The notes: a model not told the origin generated them from the sequence alone. A stretch of DNA of 64,000 nucleotides from Patescibacteria group bacterium (GCA_041650895.1 JBAZKF010000001.1:428132-492131), one strand, 5' to 3'; counted from the first letter of the stretch, positions 2,638-51,710 are shown. Numbers and translations: made by a program.

Positions 2638-3288
2638 ATGAAACTAAATTTTAAATCAGAAGTTATTCCTTGGCTGTTAATCTTAGCCAGCGTCATTGCC
2701 GCCGTTTACTTTTACTTTAATTTCCCGGCCGTCGTGGCCACGCATTGGAATTTTACCGGCCAAGCCGACGGGTTTTCCGGCCGCGGCTTCGGCGCTTTCT
2801 TTTTGCCGATCTTGGTTATCATTTTCTATCTCTTCATGACGTTATTGCCTTACTTGGATCCCAAGAAAGAACGCTACCAGGAATTCTTCGGCGCTTACCT
2901 GGGATTCCGAACGGTTCTTATTTTACTTTTCATACTTTTGCAGTTCATCACCGGTTTTTACAACCTCGGCTATGAATTAAATATCGGAATTGCCGTGGCC
3001 TGGCTGATCGGTCTTTTAATGCTATACATCGGCTGGTTGATGCCAAAAATAAAAAGCAACTGGTTTATCGGCATTCGCACCCCCTGGACATTAAGTTCAG
3101 AAAATGTCTGGAATAAAACCCATGCCTTAAGCCGCTGGCTGTTTGTAATTTTCGGCCTGGATCTCATTCTGGTGCCCTATCTGCCGGAAACCTGGGCGGT
3201 TACGGCCTTCATCTTGGGACTTATCATTTTGCTGGCGGGCAGTTTCGGCTACTCCTATTGGCTCTATTACCAAGAAAAAAAAGCTTAG
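2638..3288 (+). CDS. SdpI/YhfL-family (DUF1648-like) integral membrane protein
   Basis: N-terminal motif ...VATHWNFTGQADGF... and the 4-6 TM topology are typical of SdpI-like immunity/membrane proteins. Confidence 0.5.
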   Translation: MKLNFKSEVIPWLLILASVIAAVYFYFNFPAVVATHWNFTGQADGFSGRGFGAFFLPILVIIFYLFMTLLPYLDPKKERYQEFFGAYLGFRTVLILLFILLQFITGFYNLGYELNIGIAVAWLIGLLMLYIGWLMPKIKSNWFIGIRTPWTLSSENVWNKTHALSRWLFVIFGLDLILVPYLPETWAVTAFILGLIILLAGSFGYSYWLYYQEKKA

Positions 3289-3291
3289 TTT

Positions 3292-4359
3292 ATGTACCGC
3301 TATCTTGCTGTCAGCTTAATAACAATCACCTGCTTGCTTGTCATTGGAATCGGCGTCGCTTGGGCGCCGATTTTTCCTCTGGCCAAACAACTGACTGCTA
3401 CGCCGCCGACTGATTCACTGCCAAAAACACCGGCCATAACCACCACCACGCTCATCTTCGGCGGCGACGTCATGCTCTCGCGCAATGTCGGACAGAAAAT
3501 GACCAAATACCAAGATTGGTCCTGGCCGTTTACAAACATCGCCGGATTGCTGGCCGACGCCGACTTAGCCATTATCAACTTAGAATCGCCATTTACCATC
3601 GGCGGTTCGCATTTGGTCAAAACCGGATCATTTTCTTTTAATGCCGACCCGCAAGCGCTGGCCGGGTTGATTCAAGCCGGCATTGACGTAGTTGCTCTGG
3701 CCAATAATCATGTTTTAAACCAAGGCAAAAAAGGCATAATTGATACGCGAAAACTTTTAGCGGACAACAATATTTCTTATACAGGTGCCGGTCTGAATGA
3801 GGCCGAAGCCGGACGTCCGGCAATCAAAGAAATAAACGGGACTAAATTCGGTTTTTTGTCTTACGCCTATCCGAACGATTATTCCGTAGCCGGAACTTCC
3901 ACTCTCGGACTGGCCGGCATGGATATAAACAAAATGACAACGGCTGTTACGGAACTGAAAACAGAAGTTGATCTGGTGGCAATACTGATACATGCCGGGG
4001 CCGAATACACCAACAAGCCCAACAAACAGCAAATCGCCTTTGCCCATGCGGCCATTGACGCCGGAGCCGACTTAGTGATCGGCCATCACCCGCACTGGGT
4101 ACAGATTACGGAAATTTATAATGGCCGGCCGATTCTGTATTCTTTGGGAAATCTAATCTTTGATCAGATGTGGTCGCTGGAAACCCAACAAGGCGCCTTA
4201 GCCGAAATAACAGTGACTGATAAACAGCTAGATTCAATCAGAATCATTCCGATTAAGATTATTGATTACGGCCAAGCGACCCTGGCTACCGGCACGGAAA
4301 AAGAATTGATTTTAAACAGGCTGGGATTGGATAATGAGATTATTAACATTAATAATTAA
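3292..4359 (+). CDS. CapA-family (poly-gamma-glutamate synthesis / metallophosphatase-like) protein
   Basis: N-terminal TM segment, then LIFGGDVMLSRNVG ... LANNHVLNQG ... GHHPHW motifs of the CapA/PGA_cap family. Confidence 0.65.
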   Translation: MYRYLAVSLITITCLLVIGIGVAWAPIFPLAKQLTATPPTDSLPKTPAITTTTLIFGGDVMLSRNVGQKMTKYQDWSWPFTNIAGLLADADLAIINLESPFTIGGSHLVKTGSFSFNADPQALAGLIQAGIDVVALANNHVLNQGKKGIIDTRKLLADNNISYTGAGLNEAEAGRPAIKEINGTKFGFLSYAYPNDYSVAGTSTLGLAGMDINKMTTAVTELKTEVDLVAILIHAGAEYTNKPNKQQIAFAHAAIDAGADLVIGHHPHWVQITEIYNGRPILYSLGNLIFDQMWSLETQQGALAEITVTDKQLDSIRIIPIKIIDYGQATLATGTEKELILNRLGLDNEIININN

Positions 4360-9038: not shown

Positions 9039-10853
9039 TTAATAACCGCCACCATCACTGTAGCTGGAACTGGAACCGCTGTAACCGCCACCATCACTGT
9101 AGCTGGAACTGGAACCGCTGTAACCGCCACCATCACTGTAGCTGGAACTGGAACTGGAGCTGCTGGAACTGCTACCGCCCCAGTCGCTCCAACCGCTGCT
9201 GGAACCACTACTGGAACTACCGGAGTCAAAAGAAAACGATGACGTACTCTGGCTGTCCTGATAATCGTCGTAGGCCTTTTTGGCCGTCCGACCGGTGTCA
9301 TCAGCCAACTGATATGCTTGATCGGCATTAAAAATAGCCGATTCATAGCACCTGTTAGAGGCGTCACGACGAGCTTGGGCCAAACGGCTTTTAGCGGAAT
9401 CAAAATCCGACTGAGCCGACGAAGAATGACTGCCATAGTTTTCAATATCATCTTCGTTGTCATCAATCATTCGTTCAGCTCGACGTTCTTGATCCGGCCA
9501 AGCCAAGCGATAGGACTCCAAATCATCGACTAACCTCGTAAACTCCCGCAATAAACGATTGGCTTGAGACAAGCCATTGTCGCCACTGGTTATTTCCGAA
9601 TCAGCCAACCTGTAATCTTGATCCTCAGTCGCGATTCTTTGAGCTTCAGCCAAGTGTTCTTTGGCCCGCAAAAGATTATCGCCGGCCAATGTCAGATTGT
9701 CAGCCACTTGCGACCAAACGGTCTTCGCATGAAGATTAAGTTTGGCGCGAAGCTGTCGTGCCTGATTAAGGCCGTTTTGAGAAGCCATAATATTAGAAGC
9801 CAAAATCGCGCCACTATTCCTAACCTTCTCCGCCAGTATTAGTTGCCGATCAGCGCCTTTAATCGCTTCATTAGCCAAATCATACGCCTTAAGCGCACTA
9901 CTGAAGACCAAAAGGAGATCGTACTTGCCTTCTTCAACGATCACTAGTGAAGCCTCGGTGGCGACTGCAAACAACTGCTCCGCCTGACGCAAGTCGGCGT
10001 ATGACTGCTTAAGCGCCTTATCCGCTGTCAGCGGACCTTTGGCAACTAAGTTATCAAGATAGTTGTTAGCCGACGAAATACTGTTTTGAGCCGACGCCAA
10101 CTGTTCTCCCGCGCCAGTCTGCGCCTTCTTGTAGGAATCAAGATTATTCATCACCTTAAAGATGGAAGCATCAACAGAGCCGACAACCAAAAAACTGGCG
10201 CTCAATAGTTCACGCGCCTGCCTAGGGTCGCCTAACCCGGAGCCTTCAACCGGCAATAGACCGGAAATTATTTCCAGGTTGCCGGAGACCTTGTCAAGAC
10301 TGATTTTTGCCGCCGATAACTCTTCATTATTCAAAGCGACATACTTGGACAAATAGTCGCCGCCCTCGCTGGACAGCCTTTCCATGGCCAAAATATAATC
10401 GCGATTTTTTTCTGCCAAATCATTTTGTAGCTGGCTTAATTCCTGGCGAGCATCCTCGGCCAATTTTTCAATCGCCGACAGCTGCTCGTTGGCATTCTCT
10501 ATCGCCCGTTGCGATGCCTCAATAAGTTTTTCGGCTTCAACCGCCTGCGCCTTCTTTTGCTTGGCCTTGCCGGTCGCGTCAGCCTGCTTGATATCTTCCT
10601 CGGCCTGGCTGAGATTGATTCGCCCCGATTCAATTAAGTCGGAAATCGGGACTGAATATTCCGGTTTATACCAACTGGAAACAGCACCGAATTCAGACTG
10701 GAATCGCTCAATAGCCAAAGACTGTCCTATCGCCTCCGCCTTGACGTTGGCCAAACACTTGTCGGCCAAACGCTTAGGCGCGGACATGACCAGCCATAGG
10801 CCGGACGTCATCGCAATAACCAGCAGAATAATCAACACTTTTGACTTGTTCAT
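9039..10853 (-). CDS. Membrane-anchored long coiled-coil protein with a Ser/Gly/Tyr-rich repetitive C-terminus
   Basis: N-terminal TM segment, about 450 aa of heptad-like sequence, and a C-terminus SSSYSDGGGYSGSSSSYSDGGGY encoded by tandem 39-bp repeats. Confidence 0.55.
   Translation of the reverse strand: MNKSKVLIILLVIAMTSGLWLVMSAPKRLADKCLANVKAEAIGQSLAIERFQSEFGAVSSWYKPEYSVPISDLIESGRINLSQAEEDIKQADATGKAKQKKAQAVEAEKLIEASQRAIENANEQLSAIEKLAEDARQELSQLQNDLAEKNRDYILAMERLSSEGGDYLSKYVALNNEELSAAKISLDKVSGNLEIISGLLPVEGSGLGDPRQARELLSASFLVVGSVDASIFKVMNNLDSYKKAQTGAGEQLASAQNSISSANNYLDNLVAKGPLTADKALKQSYADLRQAEQLFAVATEASLVIVEEGKYDLLLVFSSALKAYDLANEAIKGADRQLILAEKVRNSGAILASNIMASQNGLNQARQLRAKLNLHAKTVWSQVADNLTLAGDNLLRAKEHLAEAQRIATEDQDYRLADSEITSGDNGLSQANRLLREFTRLVDDLESYRLAWPDQERRAERMIDDNEDDIENYGSHSSSAQSDFDSAKSRLAQARRDASNRCYESAIFNADQAYQLADDTGRTAKKAYDDYQDSQSTSSFSFDSGSSSSGSSSGWSDWGGSSSSSSSSSSSYSDGGGYSGSSSSYSDGGGYSGSSSSYSDGGGY
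9044..9160. repeat. Three tandem copies of a 39-bp unit (accgccaccatcactgtagctggaactggaaccgctgta) inside the 3' end of the 604-aa gene
   Basis: Perfect direct repeats read directly from the sequence. They encode SSSSYSDGGGYSG units on the minus strand. Confidence 0.9.
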
Positions 10854-12183: not shown

Positions 12184-12232
12184 ATTGATCTTGATTTTTT
12201 TAGATAACAGTGATAAAATATTGAAAGATTTC

Positions 12233-12305
12233 GGGTCGTTAGCTCAGCTGGTAGAGCAGTTGCCTCTTAAGCAAACGGTCGCAGGTTCGAATCCTGCACG
12301 ACCCA
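12233..12305 (+). tRNA. tRNA-Lys (anticodon CTT)
   Basis: Manual cloverleaf: acceptor GGGTCGT/ACGACCC, anticodon stem GTTGC/GCAAC, loop CTCTTAA. Confidence 0.8.
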
Positions 12306-12375
12306 CTTGGAAGAATATTAAGAGGCGCACCAGGAGTGCGTCTCTAATTGTGTAAATTATGTAAGCAATGCATCA

Positions 12376-12427
12376 GCACCCATGGTGAAATGGATATCAC
12401 GACTGGCTTCGGACCAGTTATTGGGGG
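12376..12427 (+). pseudogene. Orphan 5' fragment (52 nt) of tRNA-Arg(TCG), identical to 12609-12660
   Basis: Exact direct duplication of the acceptor 5' strand through the 5' strand of the T-stem. No 3' half follows. Confidence 0.8.
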
Positions 12428-12608
12428 TCGCGAAGCGACAGGATAGCAATGAACCGCGAGTTATGTCGGAAGACATAACGAGCGAGTGAATGCCGCCGAG
12501 GCGCCGGTGGCGCGTCGGCGCTATCCCTGGACAACGAATTGTTTCGTTTTCCGACGAAACAATGAGGCGGAAAGAACCGCCAATGACAGTATATAAATCA
12601 AAACTTAA
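12428..12608 (+). ncRNA. GC-rich structured insert between the tRNA-Arg fragment and the intact tRNA-Arg. Function unknown.
   Basis: Multiple hairpins with GNRA-type loops (ttatgtcGGAAgacataa; ggcggAAAGAAccgcc; ttgtttcgTTTTCcgacgaaacaa). No ORF. Shares the CCCTGGACAA core with the insert at 51411-51532. Confidence 0.4.
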
Positions 12609-12680
12609 GCACCCATGGTGAAATGGATATCACGACTGGCTTCGGACCAGTTATTGGGGGTTCGAATCCCTCTGGGTGCA
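12609..12680 (+). tRNA. tRNA-Arg (anticodon TCG)
   Basis: Acceptor GCACCCA/TGGGTGC, anticodon stem ACTGG/CCAGT, loop CTTCGGA, T-loop TTCGAAT. Confidence 0.8.
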
Positions 12681-12693
12681 TAATAAACAAAAA

Positions 12694-12726
12694 AACAGAA
12701 ATCATAACGATTTCTGTTTTTTTTTG
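12694..12726 (+). terminator. Rho-independent terminator (aacagaaatc-ataac-gatttctgtt + T-run)
   Basis: Perfect 10-bp stem followed by 8 T. A near-identical copy lies at 13457-13484. Confidence 0.7.
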
Positions 12727-12765
12727 TTATAGTTTAATCTATTTTAGATGCTATATAATCGGAGG

Positions 12766-12794
12766 TTGACAATTTGACTAGGCTTTGCTATAAT
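12766..12794 (+). promoter_or_regulatory. Consensus sigma70-type promoter TTGACA-N17-TATAAT
   Basis: Exact TTGACA (12766-12771), a 17-nt spacer, and TATAAT (12789-12794). Confidence 0.6.
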
Positions 12795-12883
12795 ACAGTA
12801 TTCCCAATGCGAGGGATGTTCTTTGTAAGTTAAGCATGACATAGGCAGTCACAAAACTCCAAAAAAGAAAGGAGGATAGAATA

Positions 12884-13078
12884 ATGACCATCTTTTGTGT
12901 TCACTTAGTTTCTTTTCTTGTCGTCTGGGTTCTCTTCATTATTGTCTCGGGACACGGTTTCCGCATGACAATGGAAACGACATGGCAGCAACGTGTCTTG
13001 CCTGCTCTATTTTTTACGGGAGTGCTCTATGTTGCGGCACTTCTTGGGACTGGGGTCATTTCTTGGCCACCCTACTAA
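12884..13078 (+). CDS. Small hydrophobic protein (64 aa, two predicted TM helices)
   Basis: RBS aaaggagga 8 nt upstream of the ATG. Sits downstream of the consensus promoter. Confidence 0.45.
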   Translation: MTIFCVHLVSFLVVWVLFIIVSGHGFRMTMETTWQQRVLPALFFTGVLYVAALLGTGVISWPPY

Positions 13079-13179
13079 TCGTAACAAAATAGAAAGGAGA
13101 AAAGCGATGTTAAGGATCATATTAAGGATCGTTCGCAAGGTCATTGGTGTAATTTCTATGTCTGAGTGCAACGGCCGTC

Positions 13180-13299
13180 ATGGTTTTTTCGTTACTCTTG
13201 GATTATGGTAAACTACCTGGTGGATTATTCGCACTTTTTGGAATAATCGTAGCTGTTATTGTGCTTGGTTTATTTGGTTGGTATCTGTTTGATGACTAA
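13180..13299 (+). CDS. Small hydrophobic peptide (MVFSLLLDYGKLPGGLFALFGIIVAVIVLGLFGWYLFDD)
   Basis: Manual translation. Overlaps, in another frame, a 34-aa ORF at 13107-13211 (MLRIILRIVRKVIGVISMSECNGRHGFFVTLGLW) that has its own RBS aaaggagaaaagcg. Confidence 0.3.
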   Translation: MVFSLLLDYGKLPGGLFALFGIIVAVIVLGLFGWYLFDD

Positions 13300-13456
13300 T
13301 CAAATTCTGTACCTTCAGTCGCTCGACATCCGCCAGGGCGACTTTTTAATTTCATTCAATTTTCAAAGAGCTAAAATAATTTGTCGAAAAAAAGTCGAAA
13401 AAAATATCGGGTCGAACCGCATTTTGGTAAAAGAAAATTTTTATGTTTATTCAACT

Positions 13457-13484
13457 GCAGAAATCATAATGATTTCTGTTTTTT
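13457..13484 (+). terminator. Rho-independent terminator, second copy of the 12694 hairpin (gcagaaatc-ataat-gatttctg + T-run)
   Basis: The stem sequence is nearly identical to 12694-12718. Confidence 0.65.
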
Positions 13485-13590
13485 GTTGTAGTTGACTTTT
13501 TTCAAAGACAAGAGTATGATTAACTATCAAGTTTAAGCAGCCTTAATTCGAAACGCACATTTCAAACCAAACAAAAAGGAGACGATAAAG

Positions 13591-14097
13591 ATGTGGCACA
13601 TCGGTGTTCATAGGTATGTCTGCATAATCGGGCCCGTTGTTATAAAAATACCAAGAGTAAAACTTATTCAGTTCTTCGCCCTCATTCTTAAAGATATTAG
13701 AGACTTAAGGTGGTGGGTGTTTAAAATTATAGTTCTCGGTGGAATTATAGAAAACATCAATGAAGCAACTTGTTATTTTCACACAAGGCACAAATTGCTC
13801 GCCCGCCTTTATCTCCCTCTTGTTTTTATTAATGTCTATCGTCGGGAAAGCGGGGTAGGCAATTTCACTTTTGGTGGCGATGAATTAACCAACAAGGTTT
13901 ACAAAACGGGTGATCGTGAGTATCTAAAAGCACTGTTACCGTGTTCACACACTTTTGACCGTACGGAGAATTTTTCTTACGACGGTGTTTGTTTAAAAAT
14001 TCTCGACTATGGTGAGAAAGGATTCGAGCATCTTCTTCTCAATTATGGGGAGCAAATTAAGAAACTGCTCTTATCGGTTGCCAACCAGCCAACATAA
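13591..14097 (+). CDS. Hypothetical protein, paralog of 59359-59970
   Basis: RBS aaaaggag. Shares an N-terminal hydrophobic segment, an R/K-x-K-H-x-LL segment and a C-terminal L(K/R)ILDYG(E/D) motif with the 59359 protein. Confidence 0.5.
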   Translation: MWHIGVHRYVCIIGPVVIKIPRVKLIQFFALILKDIRDLRWWVFKIIVLGGIIENINEATCYFHTRHKLLARLYLPLVFINVYRRESGVGNFTFGGDELTNKVYKTGDREYLKALLPCSHTFDRTENFSYDGVCLKILDYGEKGFEHLLLNYGEQIKKLLLSVANQPT

Positions 14098-14241
14098 CAA
14101 TATGGCCATTTATCCGTATAACGGGTGGATGGCCTAATTTTTTATAATTTACTGCCAAACCGACTAACTTTTAAAAACCCTGCCCTTGAAAAATTCACTT
14201 CAATAGGTTACTATTAACTCATTAAAAATTAAAACAAAATT

Positions 14242-23735: not shown

Positions 23736-24471
23736 AACTTAGGTTTAATTTTTAGCTTTAAAGCAGATAAACTCGCCCCTAGGCAAGCCCTCCCGCCGAT
23801 AGGCAGGTATTCATAAATTTCCATCAAAGCTAATAATTAAGCCCTAGAGTTAGAAAATGCCAGATTGGCATCTTCTAAAATGGAATTAGATGAGGCAAGA
23901 CGTTAGCCGTCTCGATATACTTTAAGTCATAAGTATATCACAAAAAAAATATATTGTCAACTAAACAAACATAAAAGTAGTAAATTTGGACAAAATATCT
24001 CTAAATCTTGACTTTGCAACTACCTATAATAACGCTTATTTTTGTTTAAATTTAAACAATTTAGCGGTACAGTACTAAAATAATATTAAAAATGTTTGAC
24101 AAATTACTATTATTTTGATAATGTTTTCTATTCCCCAGTTCAACTGAAATTACGACAATTCACCTAATTACCGCTTGCTAAATTAGCAAGTATCCGACTT
24201 TTTTTCTCAGTAATAAAAAGTAATCAACCACTTTGGCTGACTATGGCAAGAGTTAATTTTTATTACCGAGGCAAAAAGTCTCAACTTTCCGAAAATATTG
24301 CAAATTCAGAGAGGAAAGTTCATGAACCTTACAATTTGGTTTTGGAAGTATATAAAATATATAACTGAGAAGCTGACAACTCAAAGGAAGAATAGTTTAC
24401 CGCTGACAACTCAAGGAACAATTATCTCAGAAACCGTAACTGCTACTAACAACATAAGGAGAAAAAATGAA

Positions 24472-25281
24472 ATGAGCGAGGCCAGAACCTTTAAAATATT
24501 CCAAGGCTCCGTTATTGGTCGGGAGCATACCCGTCTCTGGAGAAACAATCAAGACGGGTTGCGGACCGGATCAACGAAAATTGCCGGCAAGCTTTATCAT
24601 TTCGGTATCGTTTGCGATGGTTGCAGCGGAGGAGAAAACAACGAAGTCGGAGCAAAATTAGTTTCGGCCTATCTCTGCAGCGAGATTCCAATGATGCTAA
24701 TGGCAGGTTCGTCCATCGGCGATATCCCTGATGCATTATTCAATCGTTGCGTCGGCTATCTGCGTTCCATCGCTTCATTGACAATTATTGGTGATCCTCG
24801 ACAATCAATCCAGTTTATTAAGGACCATCTGCTTTGTACGATTCTGGGATTCATTATGGATGATGAAATAGTGGTCATTTTCTCAGCCGGTGACGGCACC
24901 ATCATTGTTGATGATGCAATCACCCGCATCGATCAAGACAATCGTCCCTCCTATCCAGCCTACTCTTTGATTGATCGCCAATTCATAAACCTGCAAGGCG
25001 GCGAATTGCCGACATCATTTGAAACTACGTTTATTTATTTGGACGACATAAAAAAATTCGCTATTTGTTCGGATGGCGTCACCGATGCCGCCGTTCCGTA
25101 TCTGTGGGGGCACAACAACCCCTTGGGTTTGCAACGTAAATTGAAGAACATAGCACGCGGCAGTGAATCCTTTGGCGATGACTGTACGGTTATCGCCGTC
25201 GAACTTATCCCGAATGAACCGGTAACCGGCGTCATCGCCGAAACAATAGAGGCTGCTGAAGGAGTAGGAGAAATATCATGA
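24472..25281 (+). CDS. PP2C-family Ser/Thr protein phosphatase
   Basis: GIVCDGCSGGENNEVGAKLVS (motif 1/2 metal-binding Asp-Gly) and CSDGVTDA (PP2C SDG motif). RBS aagga 11 nt upstream of ATG 24472. The ORF opens at 24298. Confidence 0.7.
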   Translation: MSEARTFKIFQGSVIGREHTRLWRNNQDGLRTGSTKIAGKLYHFGIVCDGCSGGENNEVGAKLVSAYLCSEIPMMLMAGSSIGDIPDALFNRCVGYLRSIASLTIIGDPRQSIQFIKDHLLCTILGFIMDDEIVVIFSAGDGTIIVDDAITRIDQDNRPSYPAYSLIDRQFINLQGGELPTSFETTFIYLDDIKKFAICSDGVTDAAVPYLWGHNNPLGLQRKLKNIARGSESFGDDCTVIAVELIPNEPVTGVIAETIEAAEGVGEIS

Positions 25282-51325: not shown

Positions 51326-51397
51326 GGTCTGGTAGCCAAGTGGTAAGGCGACGGTCTGCAAAACCGTTATTCGGGGGTTCGATCCCCCCCCAGACCT
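51326..51397 (+). tRNA. tRNA-Cys (anticodon GCA)
   Basis: Acceptor GGTCTGG/CCAGACC, anticodon stem ACGGT/ACCGT, loop CTGCAAA, T-arm GGGGGTTCGATCCCCC. Confidence 0.8.
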
Positions 51398-51410
51398 TTT
51401 TTAAATTTTT

Positions 51411-51532
51411 GGGGGATCGAACTGGTTGGCAGTAAGGCCAGCGCGAGAGCGCGTAGCCGAAGGCCGATAGGCGCGACCATGGGAGCGCCTAGCGCCAACC
51501 CTGGACAAGCATCGCGAGAGCGATGCGCGAAA
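51411..51532 (+). ncRNA. GC-rich structured insert flanked by a 29-nt direct repeat of the tRNA-Cys 3' end (51382-51410 = 51533-51561)
   Basis: Hairpins cgcgAGAGcgcg, ggcgcGACCATGGGAgcgcc, gcatcgcGAGAgcgatgc. Contains CCCTGGACAA, as does the 12428-12608 insert. Confidence 0.4.
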
Positions 51533-51710
51533 ATCCCCCCCCAGACCTTTTTTAAATTTTTAGACTTTTTAGACCGCCCGTTTGCCAGACGGTCTTTTAT
51601 TGACAAAATTTAACGGTTATGATAGAATGACTTGTTAAGTTCTTTAACAATCAAATCACTGATAATCATTGGCGACAATAAACAACTGGGCTTAGCCCAA
51701 GGAGAAAACA

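What the first reader, a model, noticed from the sequence alone, without database searches (positions are those of the whole stretch)
12376..12680. tRNA-Arg(TCG) preceded by an exact 52-nt copy of its own 5' portion and a 181-nt GC-rich structured insert
12376-12427 is identical to the first 52 nt of the tRNA at 12609-12680 (acceptor 5' strand through the T-stem 5' strand). Between them lies a 181-nt segment far more G+C-rich than the local DNA, made of hairpins with GNRA-like loops and no ORF. Integrative elements in bacteria usually duplicate the 3' end of a tRNA. A 5'-end duplication with such a tiny cargo is unusual. Alternatives: a tRNA intron whose excision regenerates the gene, a degraded integrative element, or a small tRNA-targeting non-autonomous element or ribozyme.
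Basis: seen in the sequence. Interest (0 to 1): 0.7.

Follow-up and report, generated by a model that had tools for sequence, protein, structure and literature searches.

The report
New tRNA-attached structured RNA element
The G+C-rich insert before tRNA-Arg is one copy of an apparently undescribed, multi-copy family of small folded RNA elements in ultra-small Patescibacteria; each copy sits in or beside a tRNA gene fused to a duplicated piece of that tRNA, and what it does and how it spreads are unknown.

Summary
12375-12428 is an exact 54-nt copy of 12608-12661 (tRNA-Arg(UCG) nt 1-53 plus one leader base). It is separated from the intact gene by a 180-nt, strongly folding, ORF-less insert. 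The insert is neither a random spacer nor a decayed island. It belongs to a structured RNA family that I call E. E has a three-way junction, P2 carries invariant tandem G.A pairs, and 20 of 21 modelled pairs covary. I found about 30 copies, all in Patescibacteria MAGs. Every copy with a tRNA or tRNA fragment beside it lies on that tRNA's strand, fused to a fragment of it. Break points fall in tRNA loops: D-loop after G19, variable loop 46/47, T-loop 53/54 or 57/58. An intact tRNA copy usually lies alongside. The window holds a second copy after tRNA-Cys (51411-51532, with a 29-nt direct repeat). Close relatives differ in which tRNAs carry E. Between the window and a relative, the Arg copy is 95.6% identical where fourfold-degenerate sites are about 65% identical. 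Nothing matches in Rfam 15 or the searchable literature. Best reading: a mobile, RNA-level, ORF-less element specialised on tRNA genes. Its mechanism is inferred, not shown.

The parts
12191..12219 (+). Sigma-70-like promoter (TTGATT-17-TAAAAT with TG) upstream of tRNA-Lys; likely promoter of the whole tRNA-Lys / E / tRNA-Arg transcript
   Evidence: consensus match only
12233..12306 (+). tRNA-Lys(CTT), uninterrupted. It serves as the 'empty site' for the E copies that occupy this tRNA in relatives (V-type in L004; D-type in L073 and L074)
12376..12428 (+). T5: exact copy of tRNA-Arg(UCG) nt 1-53 (acceptor 5' strand, D arm, anticodon arm, variable loop, T-stem 5' strand, first T-loop base). The identity also includes A12375
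   Evidence: 50/53 conserved in L004
12427..12439 (+). 5' hairpin of the element (GUCGC-GAA-GCGAC). Its first two bases are the last two of T5. Conserved as GUCGCG-CUA-GCGAC in the Arg element of L074
12441..12446 (+). P1 5' strand (GGATAG), pairs with 12521-12526
   Evidence: CM alignment; L074 has GGACAG/CTGTCC, a compensatory change
12449..12491 (+). P2: helix base AUGAAC/GUGAAU with tandem G.A pairs, a second tandem G.A (GCGAG/CGAGC), an 8-bp stem and a GGAA loop (12468-12471)
12494..12520 (+). P3 hairpin, nearly identical to P3 of the tRNA-Glu element in L039
12521..12526 (+). P1 3' strand (CTATCC)
12527..12572 (+). T-type extension: J1/4 CTGGACAACGA, P4 hairpin (12538-12563), J4/0 GAGGCGGAA. 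Both junction motifs match the tRNA-Glu (L034) and tRNA-Ser (L060) elements
12576..12587 (+). Right arm ACCGCCAATGAC, complementary to tRNA-Arg nt 42-53 both in T5 (12417-12428) and in the intact gene (12650-12661). It may close the element (P0) or compete for the intact tRNA
   Evidence: duplex -16.8 kcal/mol, 0/2000 shuffles. Not in the MFE fold and absent in L074
12588..12608 (+). A+T-rich spacer between the element and the intact gene; 15/19 conserved in L004
12609..12680 (+). Intact tRNA-Arg(UCG), no encoded CCA; 72/72 identical in L004
12689..12723 (+). Intrinsic terminator closing the tRNA operon
51326..51397 (+). tRNA-Cys(GCA), intact; host of the second element in the window
51382..51410 (+). 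Direct repeat copy 1: tRNA-Cys nt 58 to the 3' end plus 14 nt of downstream flank (29 nt)
51411..51532 (+). Second element (T-type, 3' form). Left arm GGGGGATCGAAC (51411-51422) is the reverse complement of tRNA-Cys nt 53-64; then the three-way junction, P4 and J4/0
   Evidence: CM 49.3 bits, E = 2e-9
51533..51561 (+). Direct repeat copy 2 (T3 fragment plus flank), exact 29/29

Best explanation
12376-12608 is one copy of an undescribed family of small (core about 95-160 nt), ORF-less, G+C-rich structured RNA elements ('E'). So far the family is seen only in Patescibacteria. Its core is a three-way junction: a closing stem P1, P2 with invariant tandem sheared G.A pairs and usually a GNRA loop, and a P3 hairpin. 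A 'T-type' subfamily adds GGACAACGA, a P4 hairpin and GAGGCGGAA. Every copy with a tRNA or tRNA fragment next to it lies on that tRNA's strand, fused to a fragment of the same tRNA. The break falls in a tRNA loop: after G19, at 46/47, at 53/54 or at 57/58. An intact copy of the tRNA usually lies a few tens of bases away. The window copy is the mirror ('5' form') of the T-type. It consists of tRNA-Arg nt 1-53, E, a 12-nt arm complementary to nt 42-53, a 21-nt spacer and the intact tRNA-Arg. All of this lies inside the tRNA-Lys/tRNA-Arg operon. Most likely E is a selfish, mobile element that works as RNA. In this model it is transcribed with or beside tRNAs and its folded core is the functional part, either catalytic or protein-recruiting. 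It becomes joined to tRNAs at solvent-exposed loops. It is then fixed in DNA by single-crossover (Campbell-type) or homology-facilitated recombination of a small molecule carrying E plus a tRNA fragment. That step automatically creates the direct repeat and leaves one intact, selectable tRNA gene. Shown here: family membership, conserved structure, sequence constraint, multi-copy status, loop-specific junctions, and presence/absence polymorphism. Inferred: RNA-level targeting, the recombination route, and selfishness rather than host function. The enzymes involved are unknown.
For: Structure:
- A CM built from 14 copies finds 23 copies in the first set of loci. On them 94.7% of cells are paired and 20/21 pairs have double changes. 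Slid controls give 31-40% paired, and 0/500 shuffles reach the observed values.
- The G.A/A.G tandem is invariant while its flanking pairs covary.

Membership of the window insert:
- CM score 24.1 bits, E = 0.002.
- The P2 base AUGAAC/GUGAAU keeps the tandem G.A with compensatory flanks.
- P3 is nearly identical to that of L039, and GGACAACGA...GAGGCGGAA matches L034 and L060.
- The Arg element of L074 has the same junction and 5' hairpin, and a compensatory P1.

Sequence constraint:
- E is 151/158 and T5 is 50/53 identical to L004, against 62-67% identity at fourfold sites of flanking genes.

Multi-copy and tRNA-specific:
- Copies lie at Glu, Ser, His, Trp, Cys, Leu, Gly, Lys, Arg and Thr tRNAs.
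- The window has two copies among its 8 tRNAs.

Mobility:
- tRNA-Lys is empty in the window, L007 and L072, carries a V-type in L004 and a D-type in L073 and L074.
- tRNA-Gly is empty in the window, carries a V-type in L004 and a D-type in L007.
- tRNA-Arg of the window's type is empty in L072 and L073.
- The two V-type copies of L004, at different tRNAs, are each other's closest relatives at 79%.

Other points:
- The attached fragment always matches the adjacent tRNA, whatever its body (window versus L074).
- The T-type left arm is the reverse complement of nt 53-65 of its own tRNA: 11.4/13 matches against 9.4/13 for mismatched partners.
- There is no Rfam match even with permissive filters, and nothing in the literature searches.
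- Pattern hits outside Patescibacteria are chance matches: CM at most 19 bits.
Against: - No enzyme, RNA intermediate, circular form or empty/filled allele pair within one population was observed. Mobility is inferred from comparisons between species.
- Conservation as strong as that of the tRNAs fits a host function equally well.
- The CM score of the window copy is modest.
- The right arm is significant in the window and L004, but it is absent in L074 and is not part of the MFE fold.
- Discovery relied on an exact motif taken from two copies, and on about 30 copies from a few clades. Phylum restriction and copy number are therefore provisional.
- Some loci have a terminator between the tRNA and E, with a possible promoter of E's own. 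Others are plainly co-transcribed. The transcription unit is therefore not uniform.
- How the left arm comes to be an exact complement of each tRNA's T-arm is unexplained by the model.
Confidence: 0.5

Rival explanations
1. E is a host regulatory RNA: a riboswitch-like conformational switch on tRNA maturation. The three-way junction senses a ligand or protein. The arm can pair either with the duplicated tRNA fragment (a decoy that closes helix P0) or with the identical stretch of the intact tRNA, blocking its T-arm from folding.
For: - The arm is complementary to a sequence present both in the decoy and in the intact gene (window 12417-12428 and 12650-12661).
- In L004 the arm pairs better with the intact tRNA than with the decoy: -14.9 versus -10.7 kcal/mol.
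- The T-type left arm complements nt 53-65. This includes nt 53-57, which are absent from the attached fragment and present only in the intact tRNA.
- Sequence constraint is strong.
- Both window copies lie inside tRNA operons.
Against: - Many copies are separated from the tRNA by a strong intrinsic terminator.
- D-type and V-type copies have no such arm.
- The Arg element of L074 lacks the arm.
- Frequent gain and loss, with different insertion points at the same tRNA in close relatives, is unusual for a regulator.
- Decayed fragments and solitary copies exist (L010, L059).
Confidence: 0.15
2. E is a ribozyme intron, or half of a trans-splicing system. The T-type left arm would act like a group I internal guide. 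Its 5' part pairs with the attached 3' exon (nt 58 onwards) and its 3' part (YGAAC) pairs with nt 53-57 of a tRNA. This aligns a 5' exon for ligation, so E would be spliced out or would replace tRNA 3' portions.
For: - The left arm is a contiguous complement of the ligated junction, and it covaries with nt 57-60 of each tRNA.
- Junctions lie in loops that are exposed in folded tRNA RNA, not at any DNA motif.
- The window RNA can fold with the first acceptor 5' strand paired to the last 3' strand, looping out E plus the second copy.
- Patescibacteria are rich in tRNA group I introns (PMC13011429).
Against: - There is no group I or group II match.
- The core is far smaller than any known self-splicing intron.
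- The base before the 3' fragment is A or C in 8 of 9 copies, not G; the single G is the His copy, whose junction is displaced by a hairpin insertion.
- No complete 5' fragment-E-3' fragment gene without a neighbouring intact copy was found.
- Interrupted copies are truncated or mutated (L004 Lys, L038, L074 anticodon loop).
Confidence: 0.12
3. The block is a remnant or miniature derivative of an integrase-mediated integrative element (phage, ICE or CIME) at a tRNA att site. The repeat would be the att core.
For: Most T-type copies resemble classical tRNA islands: an intact tRNA, then cargo, then a direct repeat running from the T-loop to the 3' end of the tRNA. A 1.5-kb strain-specific segment follows tRNA-Arg in the window.
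Against: - There is no recombinase gene and no ORF in E.
- The cargo is a covarying RNA with RNA-only motifs (tandem G.A, GNRA loops).
- Homologous cores join tRNAs at four different positions and in two mirror orientations of duplication.
- E is conserved about as strongly as a functional gene, not decayed.
- A scan of viral contigs found no attP-like match to the tRNA segment.
Confidence: 0.05
4. The block is a simple tandem partial duplication of the tRNA gene with a fortuitous structured spacer.
For: Weak similarity extends 13 nt upstream of both copies (8/13). Flanks are also duplicated in L004 Lys and L042.
Against: The spacer is a member of a conserved, covarying, multi-genome family.
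Confidence: 0.01

Closest known systems
Group I introns in bacterial tRNA genes, including the 35/36 introns of Patescibacteria (PMC13011429)
   Same: ORF-less structured RNA. Sits in tRNA genes on the tRNA strand. Common in the same phylum. The T-type arm resembles an internal guide that pairs with both sides of the junction.
   Different: No Rfam group I match. Core is 95-160 nt rather than 200 nt or more. No omega-G. Never in the anticodon loop. Exons are not contiguous: one side is a duplicated fragment, and an intact gene lies beside it.
Archaeal non-canonical tRNA introns, and split or permuted tRNA genes (my own knowledge)
   Same: Insertions at D-loop, variable-loop and T-loop positions. 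tRNA pieces are attached to G+C-rich structured sequence.
   Different: This is a bacterial host. No bulge-helix-bulge motif or splicing endonuclease has been shown. The tRNA pieces are redundant copies next to intact genes rather than the only gene.
tRNA-targeting integrative elements and their non-autonomous derivatives (CIMEs); tRNA gene fragments left by integration (PMC9897764)
   Same: An intact tRNA plus a direct repeat of part of the tRNA, bracketing foreign DNA.
   Different: Cargo is only 120-180 nt with no integrase. Junction positions vary. Both 5' and 3' duplications occur. The cargo is selected as a folded RNA.
tRNA-derived SINEs of eukaryotes (my own knowledge)
   Same: The window copy has a tRNA-related 5' head, a structured body and an A-rich tail. 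It is non-autonomous and multi-copy.
   Different: The head is a copy of the neighbouring gene, not a family-wide sequence. Copies insert only at tRNA genes. No reverse transcriptase partner has been identified. The host is bacterial.
Rickettsia palindromic elements and bacterial MITEs (my own knowledge)
   Same: Short selfish repeats proliferating inside genes, including RNA genes, of reduced genomes.
   Different: Those are defined by DNA palindromes or terminal inverted repeats with short target duplications. E has a three-way junction with RNA-specific motifs and long, variable repeats made of tRNA sequence.

Membership tests
E family (defined here) | Three-way junction P1/P2/P3 matching the covariance model | tested here: met
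   Window 12434-12539 scores 24.1 bits, E = 0.002. Window 51417-51513 scores 49.3 bits, E = 2e-9.
E family (defined here) | Tandem G.A/A.G pairs in the base of P2, flanked by Watson-Crick pairs | tested here: met
   AUGAAC/GUGAAU in the window Arg copy. The tandem is invariant across 23 copies while its flanks covary.
E family (defined here) | Lies on the tRNA strand, fused to a fragment of the neighbouring tRNA, with the break in a tRNA loop | tested here: met
   T5 is nt 1-53 of the adjacent tRNA-Arg, and the break is in the T-loop. L074 has the same junction.
E family, T-type | GGACAACGA, then a P4 hairpin, then GAGGCGGAA after P1 | tested here: met
   12527-12572; identical motifs in L034 and L060.
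Group I intron | Match to the group I covariance model (P3-P9 core) | tested here: not met
   No hit up to E = 10 on short regions or up to E = 1 on 48 kb of canonical loci.
Group I intron | Terminal guanosine (omega-G) before the 3' exon | tested here: not met
   The base before the 3' fragment is A or C in 8 of 9 T-type copies. The single G is the His copy, whose junction is displaced by a hairpin insertion.
Group I intron | Guide sequence pairing with both exon ends | tested here: inconclusive
   The T-type left arm complements nt 53-65. However, the 5' exon is not attached, and D-type and V-type copies lack a guide.
Group I intron | Self-splicing that yields a contiguous tRNA | not testable with these tools
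   Needs in vitro transcription or RNA-seq.
Group II intron | Six-domain structure with domain V; match to Rfam models | tested here: not met
   No Rfam hit. The element is too small. Group II introns are reported absent from Patescibacteria (PMC13011429).
Small self-cleaving ribozymes (hammerhead, twister, twister-sister, pistol, hatchet, HDV-like, hairpin) | Match to the family covariance models | tested here: not met
   No hits. The junction order does not fit the hammerhead core (read directly from the sequence).
Integrase-mediated integrative element at a tRNA att site | Recombinase gene within the element | tested here: not met
   No ORF in the 180-nt or 122-nt elements.
Integrase-mediated integrative element at a tRNA att site | A fixed crossover position, and a repeat made of the 3' part of the tRNA | tested here: not met
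   The window repeat is the 5' part. Homologous cores join at 19/20, 46/47, 53/54 and 57/58.
MITE / IS-type DNA transposon | Terminal inverted repeats plus a short target duplication of fixed length | tested here: not met
   Repeats range from 19 to more than 55 nt, vary in length and consist of tRNA sequence. The only inverted repeat is the 5-8-bp P0.
Archaeal-type (bulge-helix-bulge) tRNA intron | BHB motif at both junctions, and a splicing endonuclease in the genome | not tested
   Both junctions are rarely present together. No endonuclease search was done.
tmRNA / tRNA-like RNA gene | tRNA-like domain with both acceptor strands and a tag ORF | tested here: not met
   ARAGORN finds no tmRNA. 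The T5 fragment lacks a 3' acceptor strand.

The most novel reading that the evidence does not exclude
E is a new class of RNA-level mobile element. In this reading it is a small ribozyme or protein-recruiting RNA that joins itself to exposed loops of tRNAs and is copied back into the genome. Alternatively it is a new kind of RNA switch that controls tRNA maturation through decoy/antisense pairing. Either way it would be a previously unknown RNA-based system, present at a large fraction of tRNA genes in some Patescibacteria.
Probability: 0.3. Interest if true: 0.92.

Novelty: categorically new. Interest (0 to 1): 0.8.

Why it matters
Patescibacteria have some of the smallest bacterial genomes. 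Even so, in the loci sampled here between a quarter and three quarters of the tRNA genes carry a conserved, folded, protein-free RNA element. A new structured RNA class with this copy number and such a specific association would be a candidate for a new ribozyme, a new RNA-based mobility mechanism or a new layer of tRNA regulation. It would also explain partial tRNA genes and contig breaks at tRNA loci in these metagenome-assembled genomes. The family is small enough (about 100-160 nt) to test directly in vitro.

Tried and rejected
1. Rfam at gathering and permissive thresholds, on the window, the insert and canonical copies, gave only tRNA hits.

2. The metagenome-contig scan used a motif shared by the first two copies.

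3. Viral contigs: the tRNA 5' segment (as an attP probe) gave no match. The E motif gave one chance match, not confirmed by the CM.

4. I compared the core by eye with hammerhead, group I, group II domain V, SRP, tmRNA and RNase P. The order of junctions or conserved nucleotides does not fit any of them, so I rejected all six.

5. Target-site-duplication model: rejected. D-type and V-type copies keep a piece of the tRNA on both sides of E in addition to the repeat.

6. Repeat boundaries as transcript ends (TSS or terminator): this fits His (L050) and perhaps Lys (L004). It does not fit L007, and in L004 and L042 the duplication includes diverged promoter sequence. The idea is left open.

7. 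Retro-copy signature (a post-transcriptional CCA in the fragment where the gene lacks it): not found.

8. Right arm as a general feature of the 5' form: significant in the window and L004 but absent in L074.

9. A simple YxDD motif scan of window ORFs flagged one ORF (24322-25281) as a possible reverse transcriptase motif; I did not follow it up.

10. Relatives found through the glycosyltransferase at 80-86% identity sit on contigs that end at the tRNA locus.

Full report
**Observation.** ARAGORN and Rfam call tRNA-Arg(TCG) at 12609-12680. Bases 12375-12428 are an exact 54-nt copy of 12608-12661, that is, one leader base plus tRNA nt 1-53, ending at the first T-loop base. The 180 nt in between have no ORF. 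Their G+C is 52% overall and 57% over 12429-12587, against 43% for the window. They fold far better than shuffles do (-74 kcal/mol, z = -6.5). Only two of the window's eight tRNAs, Arg(TCG) and Cys, have partial copies nearby.

**Organism and context.** The neighbouring glycosyltransferase places the window on a 455-kb contig of a Patescibacteria (Buchananbacteria-like) MAG. A promoter-like site lies at 12191-12219 and a terminator at 12689-12723. Together they bracket tRNA-Lys, the partial copy, the insert and tRNA-Arg, so all four are probably one transcript.

**Relatives.**
- Syntenic loci came from exact-protein look-ups.
- L004 (glycosyltransferase 90% identical) has the same Arg arrangement. 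It also has a second, similar arrangement at tRNA-Lys, and a third upstream of tRNA-Gly.
- L007 (85% identical) has no element at Lys or Arg, but it has one in the D-loop of a partial tRNA-Gly copy.
- L072 and L073 carry the same unusual tRNA-Arg body as the window, without any insert.
- L074 has a canonical tRNA-Arg body with a copy of its own nt 1-54 fused to a homologous insert. The junction (GGGT|CGCG) and the 5' hairpin are the same as in the window.
- The attached fragment therefore always copies the local gene.

**A family.**
- A motif shared by the Lys element of L004 and an element in L010 was scanned against one genome per GTDB species. It hit 49 loci, of which 14 were Patescibacteria. 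The other hits are chance matches, with CM scores of at most 19 bits.
- I aligned 14 cores. RNAalifold predicted a three-way junction, and I built a covariance model from it.
- The model finds 23 copies in the loci then held, and more in loci fetched later.
- Two of the copies are in the window: the finding's insert (12434-12539, 24.1 bits, E = 0.002) and a stronger one just after tRNA-Cys (51417-51513, 49.3 bits).
- On the 23 copies, 94.7% of cells pair and 20 of 21 pairs show double changes. Slid controls give 31-40% paired. This alignment is fitted to the model, which favours the structure, but the margin is large.
- The base of P2 is GCGAGAC/GUCGAGC, with a tandem G.A/A.G that never changes while its neighbours covary. 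The window Arg copy reads AUGAAC/GUGAAU at this position.
- P3 of the window copy is almost the same as in L039. The motifs GGACAACGA and GAGGCGGAA around P4 match L034 and L060.

**Architecture.**
- D-type: junction after G19 (Thr L042, Gly L007, Glu L038, Lys L073 and L074).
- V-type: junction at 46/47 (Lys and Gly in L004; Gly in L011 and L012).
- T-type: junction at 56-59 (Glu, Ser, His, Trp, Cys, Leu), or at 53/54 for Arg.
- In the 3' form, the order is: intact tRNA, then E, then a copy of the tRNA's 3' part. In the 5' form, the order is: a copy of the 5' part, then E, then the intact tRNA.
- At the window's tRNA-Cys the repeat is an exact 29 nt: nt 58 to the 3' end plus 14 nt of flank.
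- T-type 3' forms begin with an arm that is the reverse complement of nt 53-65 of their own tRNA. The match is 11.4/13 against 9.4/13 for mismatched partners.
- The window Arg copy ends with an arm (12576-12587) complementary to nt 42-53. The duplex is -16.8 kcal/mol and 0 of 2000 shuffles reach it. L074 lacks such an arm.

**Constraint and turnover.** Between the window and L004, fourfold-degenerate sites of flanking genes are 62-67% identical. E is 151/158 identical, T5 is 50/53 and tRNA-Arg is 72/72. The same tRNA can be empty, D-type or V-type in close relatives. Two copies at different tRNAs within L004 are each other's nearest relatives.

**Known families.** No Rfam family matches, even on short regions with lax filters. 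The published survey of Patescibacteria tRNA introns describes only group I introns in the anticodon loop, and it does not mention T-loop or variable-loop insertions or duplicated fragments. Eight literature searches found nothing comparable.

**Interpretation.** The insert is a genuine, conserved member of a new structured RNA family tied to tRNA genes. Several features point to a mobile element that acts as RNA:
- copy number;
- polymorphism between close relatives;
- subfamilies specific to particular tRNA loops;
- strict co-orientation with the tRNA;
- decay of the interrupted tRNA copies.

The direct repeats are what a single-crossover or homology-facilitated insertion of 'E plus a tRNA fragment' next to an intact gene would produce. 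Survival of only those events that keep an intact tRNA would explain the constant neighbour.

These mechanistic steps are inference. A host function cannot be excluded. Candidates are a decoy/antisense switch on tRNA folding, or a trans-splicing activity. Either would fit the strong conservation and the tRNA-specific arms.

Noticed in passing
window 51326-51561: A second element of the same family lies directly after tRNA-Cys. It is flanked by an exact 29-nt direct repeat that includes 14 nt beyond the tRNA, and it has a 12-nt arm that is the reverse complement of the T-arm.
   Followed up: yes
window 12609-12680, compared with L007 5500-5576 and L010 5462-5535: The window's tRNA-Arg(UCG) has an unusual body. 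Its D arm (GGTGAAATGGATATCAC) resembles that of tRNA-Leu(UAA), and it has no encoded CCA. Relatives L007, L010 and L074 have a canonical tRNA-Arg body with the same acceptor and anticodon stems. Both body types occur with and without the element.
   Followed up: partly
window 12322-12344: Hairpin GAGGCGCACCAGGAGTGCGTCTC between tRNA-Lys and tRNA-Arg. It is conserved in L004 and L007, and in variant form in L072 and L073. It may be a processing signal.
   Followed up: no
window 12690-14240: About 1.5 kb lies between tRNA-Arg and the Band_7 gene. It is absent from L004, where Band_7 starts 22 nt after the tRNA. It is bounded by two 94%-identical terminator-like copies (12696-12727 and 13458-13489). 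It contains small membrane-like ORFs and a 168-aa ORF (13591-14097) with no Pfam match.
   Followed up: partly
L050 3358-3570 (-), L038 2760-2990 (+), L007 6800-6870 (-): Extra G+C-rich hairpins of 22-40 nt are inserted inside the duplicated tRNA fragments, for example within the T-stem 3' strand of the His fragment and at D-stem and anticodon-loop positions of a Glu fragment. They may be a second kind of small insertion.
   Followed up: no
L007 5080-5360: An array of repeats with the unit GTCATTCCCGC and hairpins CCCGCGAAGGCGGG lies upstream of tRNA-Lys. This looks like a REP-like repeat family in the relative's genome.
   Followed up: no
L070 and L071 (contig ends), L002, L005, L006, L009: Several short metagenome contigs of relatives end within about 100-300 nt after the glycosyltransferase gene, at the tRNA/E locus. 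Two of them end inside a truncated element. The repeats may be breaking the assemblies.
   Followed up: partly
L010 1204-1569: A bAvd / 23S_rRNA_IVP family gene (an accessory protein of diversity-generating retroelements) lies about 1.4 kb upstream of the glycosyltransferase gene (3001-4047), roughly 4 kb from the tRNA/E locus. This hints that reverse transcriptases occur in this clade.
   Followed up: no
window 9039-10853 (-): A 604-aa ORF with no Pfam match has a Ser/Gly/Tyr-rich repetitive C-terminus (SSSSYSDGGGY repeats). It is conserved in synteny in L004 and L007.
   Followed up: no
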